DNA of 63,752 nucleotides, the filler included, from Octopus bimaculoides (taxonomy: Eukaryota): assembly GCF_001194135.2 (NCBI RefSeq). It is 3 parts of 3 records of this genome, joined end to end, with 100 filler letters (N's around TTAATTAATTAA, not from the genome) between each part and the next. Parts side by side here need not be neighbours in the genome. Positions count along the whole stretch, not along the records: positions 1 to 31,280 come from NC_068991.1; positions 31,381 to 51,224 come from NC_068988.1; positions 51,325 to 63,752 come from NC_068982.1. One strand, 5' to 3'. Below, one piece after another: positions 54-51,451 of the stretch. The stretch's first letter is position 1. Every line of letters begins with the position of its first letter. The translations under genes were made by a program, and so were the position numbers. The notes below the pieces were generated by a model. The model did no database searches and was not told where the DNA came from. It saw only the letters and a list, made by a program, of their open reading frames with translations.

Positions 54-88
54 GTATGACGTTTCGAGCGGAGCTCTTCGTCGGAAAC
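54..88 (-). ncRNA. Candidate minimal type I hammerhead ribozyme (U4C core)
   Basis: Minus strand reads GUUU-CCGACGA-A-GAGC(UCC)GCUC-GAA-ACGU-C-AUAC. It has a 4-bp stem II, the GAAA core, a palindromic ACGU stem III and a UC cleavage site between 58 and 57. Stem I pairs at only 3 of 4 positions. Confidence 0.5.
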
Positions 89-254
89 AAGAAAAGTTCA
101 AAGAAGGGAAAAACGGAGGTAGTAAAAATCGCCACCGATGTCCACGAGGTTACATTGTGGAAGGACCGGAAGAGGAAGTGGTGGAGGAAAAGTTCTTTCT
201 AAGACAGGAGAGTGAAAATGTGTGCGTCCGTGAGGGTCGTATGTGTGTAATAAC

Positions 255-985
255 AGAACGTGTGTGTGCGTATGTATGTGTGTCTGTGTGTGTGTGTGTG
301 GTTTGGCTGTGTATCTGTTAGTGTATGTGTGTGTGTTTGTGTGTGACGTAGTGGAAGGAATTAGTAGCAGGAATAGTTTGGGAGTGGTGTGGACGAAGTA
401 AGTAGAAAGTAGGCAGGCAGTTTTGGAGTATGTGTGTGTGCATGTGTGTCTGTATTGTGTGGGTGTGATTTCCTAGCAGTGTGTGCCTGTATTTTTTGTG
501 TGCGTGTGTGTATGTGTATATATATGTGTGTGTACGTGTGTGTGTATATGTGTGCGGTTTGCTCTGTGGATCGCACGTGGGTTATTTCGTGTGTGTGTGT
601 GCGTGTGCGTGTATGTGCATAATATGTGTTCGTGTATGTGTTACTGTTTGTTGTGTGTGTATGTGAGTTATGTGTGGGTTCATTTGCATGTGTGTACATG
701 TATGTGCACCTGGGTGTGTGTGTGTGTGTGAGTGTGTGTGTAGGTCATTTGCATGTGTGTGTAAGTGAGTTCGTTTCTACATGTGTGTGTGTGTGTCCTG
801 TGTGTGTGCGTGTGTATGTGTGTGTGCCTGTGATGTGTGTGCGTGTGTGTATGTATGTATACTTGGGTGTGTGTGTGTGTGAGTGCGTGTTGTGTGTGTG
901 TAGGAGTTATGTGTGGGTTCATTTGCATGTGTGTATATGTGGGTTCGTTTGTGCCGGTGTGTGTAATAATATAAATAATATATAA
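255..985. repeat. Compound (TG)n-rich low-complexity tract with an internal repeated unit
   Basis: TG dinucleotide background with a recurring unit gagttatgtgtgggttcatttgcatgtgtgt at about 665 and 904, and partially at 741. It explains the VCVC/HTHT ORFs. Confidence 0.9.
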
Positions 986-1056
986 ACATATGCATATATC
1001 CATACATATGTGTACATACCTACATCTCTATGTATACATACATGCATATATGGGTC

Positions 1057-1424
1057 CAGGACATAAAAAAAAATCGCTAAACGCAATGAGAAACGAAAAC
1101 AGAAAACAAACTTTTTTCGAACAACAAAAAAGACAAACAGAGAAACGAGACATGCAATATAAAGAGTATAAGCCTTTGCCAGTTGTCTCTGTTCCATCTA
1201 CCTCGCGTTTCGAAGGCAAGGATAATACGCGACTTCGTTGGAACAGAACTTCCCGCAAAGCAAATTAAATAAAATTTGGAATTTTTTGCGGAGGGTGAAA
1301 GTGTTAACAAAAATAGGACAGTGAGAACAAGACAGTAAAAACAAACAGTCAAGGCTGTAAAGCGAAGACGATAGAAAATTTATTATGAACGCTATGACAG
1401 ACGTGCATGAGAGAAGAGACAGAA
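1057..1424. mobile_element. Unclassified interspersed repeat (family X), copy 1
   Basis: Colinear and similar to 5573-5950 over about 370 bp. It is non-coding and runs into an N gap. Confidence 0.8.
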
Positions 1425-1792
1425 NNNNNNNNNNNNNNNNNNNNNNNNNNNNNNNNNNNNNNNNNNNNNNNNNNNNNNNNNNNNNNNNNNNNNNNNNNNN
1501 NNNNNNNNNNNNNNNNNNNNNNNNNNNNNNNNNNNNNNNNNNNNNNNNNNNNNNNNNNNNNNNNNNNNNNNNNNNNNNNNNNNNNNNNNNNNNNNNNNNN
1601 NNNNNNNNNNNNNNNNNNNNNNNNNNNNNNNNNNNNNNNNNNNATATATATATATATATATAATTATATGTATTTATTTTCTCTTGGTTAACAATTAACT
1701 CTGACAAAATAAATTGTTTAATAGTTACCGGGTAGCAAAGTTCACAAAATAAATTGGATGTAACCCTGTTGATGTGAGGTATTTTGAATAAA

Positions 1793-2760
1793 TATAAGAT
1801 TAAATAAATGGAGTTATACGCACGTGTTAAATGATTTCTTTTACTTCCGACATATGTTTCGAAGATTACAATTGGTTCATTCCAAAGGAATGAATGGTGT
1901 AGAGAAAGACGCTGCATAGCTTATTTGAAAAACAAAACCGTTGGAAGGTGCAACGCTACGAGACAGTACGTTGGAAGAGGAAGGAAGAAAAAGAGAAAGA
2001 AGAAAATATTAGAATCTGGAGTGGAAAGTAAATAGAACAATTTTAAACCAGATTAAATTTGTAAGAAAAGTATGTTGTGTGTAATGGAAATGTAAAAGGG
2101 AAATAATCGTGTGTTTATACTTGCAGTGTTGACATTTATATATACACACGATAACCGTGTGGCAATAAAGGCAATGTTTATATTATTTATATAGGTAAAT
2201 GGTGCTTGTGTGTATTAGTAAGGTATCAAGTGTTTTAACAATATATAAAGATAATAAATGCTCTGTTGATCTAAAGAGAGAGAGAGTTATTAAATGAAAT
2301 GGAAATTAGAAGGGTAAAGTTAAAGAATTTATGGAGTTAAAAAAATACTTGTTTGAACTAAGTTAATGTTTGAACCAATATTTACTTCGATATCCACGCT
2401 CGATAGGTCTTAATGCAAGGATATACTTATGAATAAAATAAAGTAAAGGGTTCTATATTTTGTAGAGCAGTATGTTATACGTAATAATGTTGGGAAAAAA
2501 ATATTTATATATTTTTGGCACCTTTCAACGTTTTTTATTTTTTTCAAATAAGCTATGTGCCGTCCTTCTCTAATCGCAGTTGTCGCATTCGGTAAATATG
2601 TCGTACGTTTGAGTTGTATTTCCCTGAAGATAAGATTGCATCTTTCTCAACATCATTCATTCCTTTGGAATGAACTAATTGTAATCTTCGAAATATATGT
2701 CTGAAGTAAAAGAAAGTATTTAACACGTGCGTATAACTCCATTTATTTAATCTTATATAC
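1793..2760. repeat. Long inverted repeat (foldback/MITE-like, or two opposed copies of one repeat)
   Basis: 1793-1951 is the reverse complement of 2518-2558 plus 2638-2760. The right arm has about 80 extra bp. The arms are diverged, not identical. Confidence 0.8.
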
Positions 2761-2854
2761 ACACAAACACACACACACATATACACACACACACACACAC
2801 ACACGCACACACACACACACACACATATATATATATATATATATATATATATAT

Positions 2855-49010: not shown

Positions 49011-50569
49011 CAAACATTTTCAGTTAAAAAGAATATAATCTATATGTATATACAGTTATATTGATAACTCGAGCTGATAAGAGAGGCAGCATATACGAAA
49101 TCGTCCTGTTTAAATCTGAAATTTAAATTCATGCTTTCTGGATTCTTGGGGACGATGGAGGGAGGGGTCTTATTTAAAAAGAAAATCGTAGCATTCTAGG
49201 AAACAAAATAACTGCTATCATATGCTTATTCATTTCAAATATTACTGTGTTTTCATCGGATATTATGATATACACTGGGAAAAATTCGCTTCTCTGTAAA
49301 ATCAAACGACTGTTAGAATATCACGCATGGAGATAATCGGTCTTCGTATAAGTAAATGTGCAATGAGATAGAATAGATGATTATAACTCAAATATTTGTC
49401 AATCATATAAGGTATGGAGAATTTACTATTGAGTCGAATATGGCATCTAAGGAGGGATATATATCTGATCAATCACGCTTTCATCACAAAATGAAAGCAA
49501 AATCGAAAGCATATTATTACGACGACCAAAGTCGTAAACACTTGTGAAGTTTTAGTAAGTTTTATAGAATAAAGTCAGGTGTAAACAGTCGAACAGACAT
49601 GTAACTTATGTTAAAACGATTTTGGAGAAAAATTGCACAAATCTGTCAGGACCAAGAGGCCTATTTTTCGAGAAAAGCATGCTCTGATGTGGAATAAGCA
49701 AAAACTTATATATGACTAGTGTAAAATTTACCTGGCAACGACGGACTATTCAGCTAGTATCATATATATATATATATATATATATATACTCACATACAGG
49801 CACAGGCACATACAATTACACAAACATAGGAGTGTATANNNNNNNNNNNNNNNNNNNNNNNNNNNNNNNNNNNNNNNNNNNNNNNNNNNNNNNNNNNNNN
49901 NNNNNNNNNNNNNNNNNNNNNNNNNNNNNNNNNNNNNNNNNNNNNNNNNNNNNNNNNNNNNNNNNNNNNNNNNNNNNNNNNNNNNNNNNNNNNNNNNNNN
50001 NNNNNNNNNNNNNNNNNNNNNNNNNNNNNNNNNNNNNNNNNNNNNNNNNNNNNNNNNNNNNNNNNNNNNNNNNNNNNNNNNNNNNNNNNNNNNNNNNNNN
50101 NNNNNNNNNNNNNNNNNNNNNNNNNNNNNNNNNNNNNNNNNNNNNNNNNNNNNNNNNNNNNNNNNNNNNNNNNNNNNNNNNNNNNNNNNNNNNNNNNNNN
50201 NNNNNNNNNNNNNNNNNNNNNNNNNNNNNNNNNNNNNNNNNNNNNNNNNNNNNNNNNNNNNNNNNNNNNNNNNNNNNNNNNNNNNNNNNNNNNNNNNNNN
50301 NNNNNNNNNNNNNNNNNNNNNNNNNNNNNNNNNNNNNNNNNNNNNNNNNNNNNNNNNNNNNNNNNNNNNNNNNNNNNNNNNNNNNNNNNNNNNNNNNNNN
50401 NNNNNNNNNNNNNNNNNNNNNNNNNNNNNNNNNNNNNNNNNNNNNNNNNNNNNNNNNNNNNNNNNNNNNNNNNNNNNNNNNNNNNNNATATATATATATA
50501 TATATATGTATGTATGTATGTATATGTGTCTGAGCGTGTGCGTGTGTTCTTGTGTTTGTGTTCGTCCCC

Positions 50570-50740
50570 CCATCATGGCTTGACAACCGATGCTGGTGCG
50601 TTTACGTCCGTAAACTAGGGTTTCGCTGCAAAAAAGACTGATAGAATAAGTATTACGCTTACAAACAATAAATCCTGAGATCGACTTGCCCCACTAAAGG
50701 CGGTGCCCCAGGATTTGGCCGCAGTGAAATAAGAATAAAA
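50570..50740 (+). mobile_element. Family B SINE, 3' half
   Basis: cttgacaaccgatgctggtg...gatagaataagta...aaggcggtgccccag..ggccgcagt matches the reverse complement of 63445-63630. Confidence 0.75.
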
Positions 50741-51224
50741 TAATATAGATTCTATAATAAATCTCTGAACGAGATATAAACACGACATCGTGAAGTATAT
50801 TTGAAACTGAAAATATTTGTTATTCATTTATTAATCGGCTTAGAGGGCATTCGTAGCATTCAAGATCCTGGAGCTCATGGCAGGATTACAACAAGATTTG
50901 TTCGGAGCAGAATTTAGACTGAATATCGAGATCATGAATGCAAAGTACACGAATCGAAAACTCTGTCTTGGTTTCACAGACCATTACCTATTCAACTATA
51001 CATAAGGCTGAGAGCAGAGAGAGAGAAGAGAAGATGGAAAGAGAAGGGAATGAATAAGAAAGAGAGAGGATGGGAGAGATGGAGAGAAGGAGGAGAGAGA
51101 GAATGCTAAAGGATAGCTAATGAAATAGTGAGTGTATAGTTTTTCACCCATTAATACTAATTTATGTATGTGTGTGTGTGTGTGTACGCGCGCGCGTGTC
51201 AGTGCATCTGTGTGTATACATGTG

Positions 51225-51324
51225 NNNNNNNNNNNNNNNNNNNNNNNNNNNNNNNNNNNNNNNNNNNNTTAATTAATTAANNNNNNNNNNNNNNNNNNNN
51301 NNNNNNNNNNNNNNNNNNNNNNNN
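51225..51324. other. Artificial scaffold-join spacer (44 N + TTAATTAATTAA + 44 N)
   Basis: Identical in design to 31281-31380. Confidence 0.92.
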
Positions 51325-51359
51325 ATATACCTTATTAAAAGCAGCAGAAATATCACAAA

Positions 51360-51400
51360 AACTATTACTCAGAGTTTCACGTTCCCGTTCGTCGGACAGT
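51360..51400 (-). ncRNA. Minimal type I hammerhead fold (U4C core), minus strand
   Basis: ACUGU-CCGACGA-ACG(GGAA)CGU-GAA-ACU(CUG)AGU-A-AUAGU. Stem I has 5 bp with one G.U, and the stem II pairs are all Watson-Crick. Confidence 0.65.
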
Positions 51401-51405
51401 CCGAC

Positions 51406-51451
51406 AAAACCGTCCGACGAACGGGAACGTGAAACTCTGAGTAACAGTATT
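51406..51451 (+). ncRNA. Minimal type I hammerhead fold (U4C core), plus strand
   Basis: AAAACCGU-CCGACGA-ACG(GGAA)CGU-GAA-ACU(CUG)AGU-A-ACAGUAUU. The cleavage site is after 51443, and stem I has two mismatches. Confidence 0.6.

What the first reader, a model, noticed from the sequence alone, without database searches (positions are those of the whole stretch)
54..51451. Four hammerhead folds in two unrelated repeat families all use CCGANGA (U4C) instead of CUGANGA
Seen: the folds at 54-88 (-), 2861-2906 (+), 51360-51400 (-) and 51406-51451 (+) keep C3, G5, A6, G8, A9, G12, A13, A14, the A15.1-U16.1 pair and an H17 base, yet all have C at position 4. The three family H folds share ancestry, but the 54-88 fold has different stems and flanks. 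Established: PLEs carry minimal type I hammerheads with short stem III that can cleave as dimers, and this window holds three PLE remnants. Inference: this is a lineage-typical variant ribozyme rather than random decay, possibly an attenuated cleavage system for PLE or retrozyme RNAs. I cannot check whether it is already described.
Basis: partly seen in the sequence, partly recalled or inferred. Interest (0 to 1): 0.75.

Follow-up and report, generated by a model that had tools for sequence, protein, structure and literature searches.

The report
Variant hammerheads at Penelope retroelement ends
The four motifs are the tail ends of two different Penelope-type jumping genes that carry, in thousands of copies, a self-cutting-RNA (hammerhead) fold with C instead of the usual U at one core position; this is likely a slowed but still working ribozyme that the standard search pattern misses, although the genome's commonest family keeps U and cutting is untested.

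Summary
The four folds are real and are the only ones in the window (0.07 per shuffled window). They come from three insertions of two families. C4 is the source state of these families. Family H has C4 in 87 of the first 100 of 1,619 genome matches, and its U4 copies are mostly CpG-decayed. Family A has C4 in about 92% of RNA reads. H is the 3' end of a Hydra-type Penelope-like element (PLE); A belongs to another endonuclease-bearing PLE. A third family, P3, also has C4 (16 of 19). Stem II covaries among C4 subfamilies. 'Lineage-typical' is overstated: one descriptor gives 8,050 U4 against 2,108 C4 matches, and the largest family keeps U4. U4C is known from a viroid, where it lowers activity. 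I found no report of it as a PLE family consensus, but could not read Lunse 2017. Best reading: slow, dimer- or protein-dependent PLE hammerheads (0.58); main rival: a non-cutting vestige. Side finding: another PLE family has an A3-U8 core with a G3-C8 subclade. Earlier scan notes describe PLE-end hammerheads in this genome but not C4. Verdict: new variant of a known kind.

The parts
54..88 (-). Family A minimal type I hammerhead fold, core CCGACGA plus an extra A, stem II 4 bp, ACGT palindrome, predicted cut between 58 and 57; weak stem I
   Evidence: relatives
1..1000 (-). 3' end of a family A PLE copy: CA-rich 3' UTR leading into the hammerhead; cut off by the start of the stretch; upper limit approximate
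   Evidence: window 1-646 aligns at 84% to another copy; same UTR lies downstream of a GIY-YIG frame in L178
2861..2906 (+). Family H hammerhead fold, core CCGATGA, stem II 3 bp, palindrome ACTC-A-GAGT, predicted cut after 2898
2855..3011 (+). 5'-truncated family H PLE stub ending at the long (tail) 3' end, between TA/CA microsatellites
51360..51400 (-). Family H hammerhead fold in the inverted copy (short 3' end), core CCGACGA, predicted cut after 51366
51406..51451 (+). Family H hammerhead fold in the direct copy, core CCGACGA, stem I partly decayed, predicted cut after 51443
51330..51551 (.). One PLE insertion made of two head-to-head 5'-truncated family H ends
   Evidence: 16 of 30 family H loci have such an inverted partner
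12618..13064 (-). Context only: GIY-YIG endonuclease remnant of another Hydra-type PLE family
   Evidence: Pfam GIY-YIG E 6.5e-5; 35% identical to the family H endonuclease
25131..26261 (-). Context only: RT plus endonuclease remnant of a Neptune-like PLE
20307..20738 (+). Context only: weak RT remnant similar to the P3 (Hydra-type) protein
   Evidence: tblastn E 4e-5

Best explanation
The folds are minimal type I hammerheads in the 3' UTR of two different endonuclease-bearing Penelope-like elements, with C4 fixed in the source elements of each family, and they are likely slow, conditional ribozymes. Shown: position and sense orientation downstream of a GIY-YIG frame; C4 as family state; compensatory changes in stem II; a palindromic helix III that cannot fold within one copy. 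Inferred: two hammerheads in a tandem transcript would pair their palindromes to build helix III, and would cut after N17 slowly because C4 weakens the CUGA turn, probably with help from the element's own protein as in the anole PLE. Most new copies are made from uncut RNA, so dispersed stubs keep the whole fold. The window's copies are dead stubs; the inverted pair would form a hairpin rather than a dimer.
For: Family state: H 95 of the first 100 of 1,327 matches have C4 and 87 of the first 100 of 1,619 with stem II free, controls 0. Copies found without using the core: H 19 of 21 and P3 16 of 19 have C4. Of 12 H-type U4 rows, 11 have another altered CpG in stem II, against 31 of 87 C4 rows (counted by eye; Fisher p 0.0003), so U4 there is later decay. 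Reads laid on family A show U4 in 34/448, 30/338 and 23/285. PLE link: 7 H copies align over 1.5-2.2 kb, and 5 of them show a GIY-YIG-type frame about 1.45 kb upstream; family A has a Pfam GIY-YIG frame upstream in L178 across a scaffold gap with a 94-bp exact overlap, and a second copy shares that UTR; P3 folds lie about 0.8-0.9 kb after the endonuclease match. Constraint: 36 C4 family A-type motifs show A-U to G-C (5) and G-C to A-U (3) swaps in stem II, 0 of 500 shuffles reach the score, and N7 and N17 vary. The H fold matches the published coral element Hydra-2_aMil in stem I, helix III and A17 but has C4. A U4C viroid variant keeps enough activity in vivo (PMC3088659, passage). The anole PLE hammerhead cuts only with protein (PMC11167929).
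Against: No cleavage was measured. U4C considerably lowers activity in vitro, and a mutational scan found low activity for all changes in the CUGA turn except the 3-8 swap (PMC9901934, passages). The youngest family A subfamilies, including the window copy, have only 1 pair before a U.U mismatch in stem I. No read ends pile up at the cut site in 3 unstranded RNA runs (weak test). None of 67 family H copies begins at the cut site (most were collected by the core). Hammerhead mutants did not affect insertion in vitro for the anole PLE. The 36 motifs were picked by a core pattern and are related, so the shuffle count is not a probability; only 54 of 500 and 102 of 500 for the two pair-count measures.
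Confidence: 0.58

Rival explanations
1. Vestigial ribozyme. C4 drifted to fixation in source elements because cutting is dispensable. The fold persists as a binding or folding landmark for the PLE protein, or by inertia, and does not cut at a useful rate.
For: Low activity of U4C and other CUGA mutants. Hammerhead mutants still insert in vitro. Naiads thrive without canonical hammerheads (PMC8557442). Weak stem I in the youngest family A subfamilies. No cut-site footprint in reads or copies. 40 of 67 H copies start within -21 to +9 of C3, which fits a role as a structural landmark.
Against: Stem II swaps are compensatory within C4 lineages. In reads laid on family A, frequent differences fall in flanks, loop 2 and the covarying pair, and no core position other than N4 is among the 40 rows shown (about 26 of 151 positions variable, so weak, and 38 rows were not shown). 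A PLE family in the same genome swaps A3-U8 to G3-C8, a pair that matters for catalysis.
Confidence: 0.32
2. The motifs belong to non-autonomous retrozyme-like units that make circular RNAs.
For: Most copies are short stubs without a reading frame. Two loci hold two family A folds in tandem, 210 and 772 nt apart.
Against: Both families continue into PLE coding sequence. Copies are dispersed, 5'-truncated, often inverted, and H has two fixed 3' ends like a PLE tail.
Confidence: 0.07
3. Chance or post-insertion decay of canonical U4 hammerheads.
For: In the large U4 family, 8 of 94 matches in the first 16.6 Mb of contig C1 have C4 (counted by eye), so C4 does arise by mutation.
Against: C4 is the majority state in H, A and P3, and CpG decay runs towards U4. 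Shuffles give 0.07 folds per window.
Confidence: 0.02

Closest known systems
Minimal type I hammerheads of metazoan PLEs (Cervera and de la Pena 2014, PMC4209133; read parts 1-2 of 4 of the main text and the whole supplement PDF text)
   Same: 3' pLTR position, short stems, palindromic helix III that needs a dimer; family A also has the extra base after A9 and G10.1-C11.1
   Different: Their descriptor fixes 'cuganga' and all 56 aligned examples have U4; here whole families have C4
Hammerheads of Hydra-clade PLEs, above all Hydra-2_aMil of Acropora millepora (Craig et al. 2021, PMC8557442; passages and supplement part 2 of 59 with File S2)
   Same: Family H has the same stem I (CTGT/ACAG), helix III (ACTC-N-GAGT) and A17, and an endonuclease with a CxCX5C-type linker and TA-repeat insertion
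   Different: Every motif listed in File S2 has U4, including the one octopus Hydra element; H and P3 have C4
U4C natural variant of a viroid hammerhead (Ambros and Flores 1998; not held, seen only as cited in Perreault et al. 2011, PMC3088659, passages and section 8)
   Same: Same base change; lowered activity in vitro but enough in vivo
   Different: There a rare variant of a full hammerhead with tertiary contacts; here fixed in several high-copy families of minimal hammerheads
Poseidon element of Anolis carolinensis (Frangieh et al. 2024, PMC11167929; read parts 1-2 of 4)
   Same: PLE with hammerhead, two 3' ends (tail), no read ends at the cut site
   Different: Cleavage there was shown, protein-assisted; nothing is shown here
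About 150,000 short-stem-III PLE hammerheads (Lunse et al. 2017; not held under DOI, PMC id or PubMed id; seen as citation and in a review passage, PMC6765202; the number is recalled)
   Same: Dimer-cleaving PLE hammerheads with palindromic stem III
   Different: Whether that set includes C4 or A3-U8 cores could not be checked

Membership tests
PLE minimal type I hammerhead | 5' core CUGANGA | tested here: not met
   C at position 4 in all four folds and in the family majorities; other core bases are present
PLE minimal type I hammerhead | GAAA, A15.1-U16.1 and H17 | tested here: met
PLE minimal type I hammerhead | Palindromic helix III unable to fold as a monomer | tested here: met
   ACGT and ACTC-N-GAGT; no monomer hairpin, self-duplex -1.7 and -7.4 to -7.9 kcal/mol
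PLE minimal type I hammerhead | Extra base after A9 and G10.1-C11.1 | tested here: inconclusive
   Met in family A; family H closes stem II with A-U, like some Hydra-clade motifs
PLE minimal type I hammerhead | Stem I of at least 2-3 pairs | tested here: inconclusive
   7-8 pairs in two H folds; 2 pairs before a mismatch at 51414; 1 pair before a U.U in the family A fold
PLE minimal type I hammerhead | Sense position downstream of a PLE reading frame | tested here: met
PLE minimal type I hammerhead | Self-cleavage after N17 as a dimer | not testable with these tools
   Unstranded fragmented RNA reads show no end pile-up, which is a weak test
Hydra-clade PLE (families H and P3) | C-terminal GIY-YIG endonuclease with a CxCX5C linker and no CCHH | tested here: met
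   Linker read directly in translations against the definition; some H copies have lost the second C
Hydra-clade PLE (families H and P3) | RT motifs RWK and DKT, and placement in an RT tree | not tested
   No full RT of family H was fetched
Non-LTR retrozyme | Tandem non-coding units of fixed length with no link to a reading frame | tested here: not met
   Linked to PLE coding regions; dispersed truncated and inverted stubs
Rfam hammerhead families | Covariance model match | tested here: inconclusive
   No match for the C4 folds, but a U4 control is missed too

The most novel reading that the evidence does not exclude
PLEs of this genome have repeatedly and independently tuned their hammerhead cores down by selection: C4 fixed in at least two PLE clades and held against CpG mutation back to U4, plus a natural A3-U8 family with a G3-C8 subclade, so that all four Watson-Crick 3-8 pairs occur in one genome. 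These would be protein- or dimer-gated ribozymes invisible to the usual descriptor, and the real hammerhead census of animal genomes would be much larger.
Probability: 0.2. Interest if true: 0.66.

Novelty: new variant of a known kind. Interest (0 to 1): 0.43.

Why it matters
The descriptors used for PLE hammerheads in the two papers I could check fix 'cuganga', so families with C4, A3-U8 or G3-C8 cores are missed; in this genome that hides at least about 3,700 pattern matches. Sister subfamilies that differ at position 4 give a ready natural comparison for an open question: do PLEs need their hammerhead to cut, and how fast? If native C4 dimers cut, position 4 should be treated as Y in retroelement searches. 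If they do not, the fold has a non-catalytic role.

Tried and rejected
Rfam gave no hammerhead match, also not for a U4 control, so it is uninformative. Single-strand folding does not give the hammerhead as the lowest-energy fold for any of the four window copies, as expected for dimer-type motifs; not used as evidence. A first attempt to link family A to a reading frame through L040 failed: the upstream piece was a different nested family with a U3-A8 core; the link rests on L178 and L081. The run search listed no RNA holder on record. Three raw RNA runs of the same species label as some holders were laid: both strands equal, most reads under 95% alike, no end pile-ups; the position-4 row for family H was not among the rows shown. 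C-to-U editing as a switch was rejected: U4 is 8-9% in RNA reads and 9.5% by depth in contigs of run X15, whose kind is not on record. A genomic footprint of cleavage was not found in H, A or P3. Literature: 9 searches found no report of C4 as a PLE family state or of natural A3-U8 or G3-C8 cores; Lunse 2017, Ambros and Flores 1998, Przybilski and Hammann 2007, Hammann 2012 and Arkhipova 2017 were not held. PMC13481778 (passages) uses a CYGANGA descriptor and reports C/T variation at that position in virome hammerheads, which lowers the novelty of C4 as such.
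Full report
Observation. The four folds are at the stated places. A relaxed descriptor with position 4 free finds exactly these four in the window, against 0.07 per window in 30 dinucleotide shuffles. The window is a pack of three stretches. The two folds at 51.4 kb are one head-to-head insertion, so there are three insertions of two families, called A (54-88) and H (the other three). That the genome is an octopus is inferred from recall and from earlier scan notes; it was not tested.

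C4 is the family state. For H, a pattern with position 4 free gives 1,327 matches and 0 controls; the first 100 are 95 C, 4 T, 1 G. With stem II free there are 1,619 matches and 0 controls; the first 100 are 87 C and 13 T. One T row belongs to another family. Of the other 12, 11 have a second altered CpG in stem II, against 31 of 87 C rows (counted by eye; Fisher p 0.0003). C4-G5 is a CpG, so these U4 copies are later decay. Among copies found by upstream DNA and not by the core, 19 of 21 have C4, 1 has T and 1 a gap. For A, a DNA search had 2,470 candidates, and all 30 loci fetched have C4. Reads of three RNA runs laid on A show U4 in 34/448, 30/338 and 23/285.

C4 is not typical of the whole genome. 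One minimal descriptor gives 2,108 matches with C4 (control 11) and 8,050 with U4 (control 26). Most U4 matches belong to one large family; in the first 16.6 Mb of contig C1 it has 86 U4 and 8 C4 matches (counted by eye). In a tree of 93 A-type motifs, picked by core pattern, a U4 subclade lies among C4 subfamilies (midpoint-rooted, no clade test). Several other folds with long palindromes also keep U4.

What the elements are. Seven H copies align over 1.5-2.2 kb, and five of them show a GIY-YIG-type endonuclease frame on the same strand about 1.45 kb upstream of the fold. Its linker is of the CxCX5C type that defines the Hydra clade (PMC8557442). The H fold has the same stem I, helix III and A17 as the coral element Hydra-2_aMil, and every motif in that paper's File S2 has U4, so C4 is likely derived. 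H copies end at two fixed places, 43 and about 113 nt after the predicted cut, like the PLE tail (PMC11167929), and 16 of 30 loci have an inverted partner (two pairs of these loci are the same insertion). For A, locus L178 has a Pfam GIY-YIG frame (E 3e-5) with a CCHH-type pattern upstream of a long CA-rich UTR. A scaffold gap interrupts the UTR, but 94 bp match exactly on both sides and copy L081 shares 116 non-repetitive 18-mers with the part before the gap. A and H share no similarity outside the core and belong to different endonuclease types, so C4 likely arose at least twice. A third family, P3 (Hydra-type), has the fold downstream of its endonuclease in sense, with C4 in 16 of 19 copies from 30 loci found by protein. 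A few copies of a further C4 fold were seen.

Constraint. In 36 C4 A-type motifs, stem II shows five A-U to G-C and three G-C to A-U swaps, while N7, N17 and loop 2 vary. The covariation score 0.180 is reached by 0 of 500 shuffles, and slid controls pair 21-42% of cells against 81%; the two pair-count measures are not exceptional (54/500, 102/500). These rows are related and were picked by the core, so this is supporting, not decisive. The same swap appears at matched frequencies in RNA reads (199/517 and 201/511 in run X21). Against function: the youngest A subfamilies have a U.U mismatch at the second pair of stem I; no read ends pile up at the cut site; and none of 67 H, 55 A or 32 P3 alignments starts exactly there (the P3 set includes spurious short hits).

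Mechanism. Helix III is a palindrome that cannot fold within one copy but can pair between two, as described for PLE hammerheads (PMC4209133). U4C lowers activity in vitro yet allows viroid infectivity (PMC3088659), and a mutational scan found low activity for changes in the CUGA turn other than the 3-8 swap (PMC9901934). The anole PLE hammerhead cuts only with protein, and cutting is not needed for insertion in vitro. I therefore put 0.58 on slow, dimer- and probably protein-dependent cleavage, 0.32 on a non-cutting vestige, 0.07 on retrozymes and 0.02 on chance. All steps about catalysis are inferred.

Side finding. A Neptune-like PLE family has, about 200 nt after its endonuclease, a full hammerhead-like fold with A3 and U8 in place of C3 and G8. 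A pattern with positions 3, 7 and 8 free gives 166 matches and 0 controls; the first 100 are 88 A3-U8, 7 G3-C8 and 5 unpaired or wobble (counted by eye). The seven G3-C8 copies group together inside the A3-U8 copies, which is one compensatory event. A U3-A8 family is also abundant. This shows that PLE hammerhead cores in this genome vary under a pairing constraint, and it may be newer than C4.

Comparison with print. PLE hammerheads are well known. The two PLE descriptors I could read fix 'cuganga', so C4 families would be missed. U4C itself is known, and a CYGANGA descriptor is in use (PMC13481778). Nine searches found no report of C4 as a PLE family state or of natural A3-U8 or G3-C8 cores. 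Lunse et al. 2017, the largest survey, and Arkhipova et al. 2017 were not held, and bioRxiv supplements are closed; they could hold these variants. Also seen: bioRxiv 10.64898/2026.07.22.740005 (part 1 of 5), PMC6765202, PMC10085705, PMC3884650, PMC3907566, PMC11014351 and PMC7229834 (passages only). Verdict: new variant of a known kind, interest 0.43.

Noticed in passing
L216-L245 and L326-L345, L416-L425 (e.g. L164:2270-2310, minus strand): Neptune-like PLE family with a hammerhead-like fold whose core is ATGANTA (A3-U8); 166 genome matches, with a G3-C8 subclade (7 of the first 100). Not found in print in my searches.
   Followed up: partly
L296-L325 (e.g. L302:1501-1646): Abundant short repeat (1,956 candidates) built on a U3-A8 minimal hammerhead, often with an inverted partner; U3-A8 cores are already described in PLEs.
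   Followed up: partly
Family H loci: 40 of 67 copies are 5'-truncated within -21 to +9 nt of C3, that is at the 5' edge of the fold; could reflect reverse transcriptase stalling or switching at the folded hammerhead. Sampling by the core may inflate this.
   Followed up: partly
window 1180-1270 (-) and 5680-5770 (-): Two copies of a repeat with a conserved nested and crossing pairing pattern (an outer stem enclosing two interleaved helices) that looks like a pseudoknot; no Rfam match.
   Followed up: no
L091-L120: The genome's largest minimal-hammerhead family (canonical U4, long stem II), inserted in AAT repeats; about 9% of its matches in the first 16.6 Mb of C1 have C4.
   Followed up: partly
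L427, L428, L429: Further Hydra-like folds with C4 and different stems I and II; parent elements not found.
   Followed up: no
window 18187-18483 (+) and 55153-55704 (-): Frames resembling Tc1/mariner transposase fragments (judged by eye; only a weak unrelated Pfam hit for the first).
   Followed up: no
L183:4257 and 4467; L184:3101 and 3873: Two family A folds of different subfamilies in tandem on one strand, 210 and 772 nt apart; natural candidates for a cis dimer.
   Followed up: no
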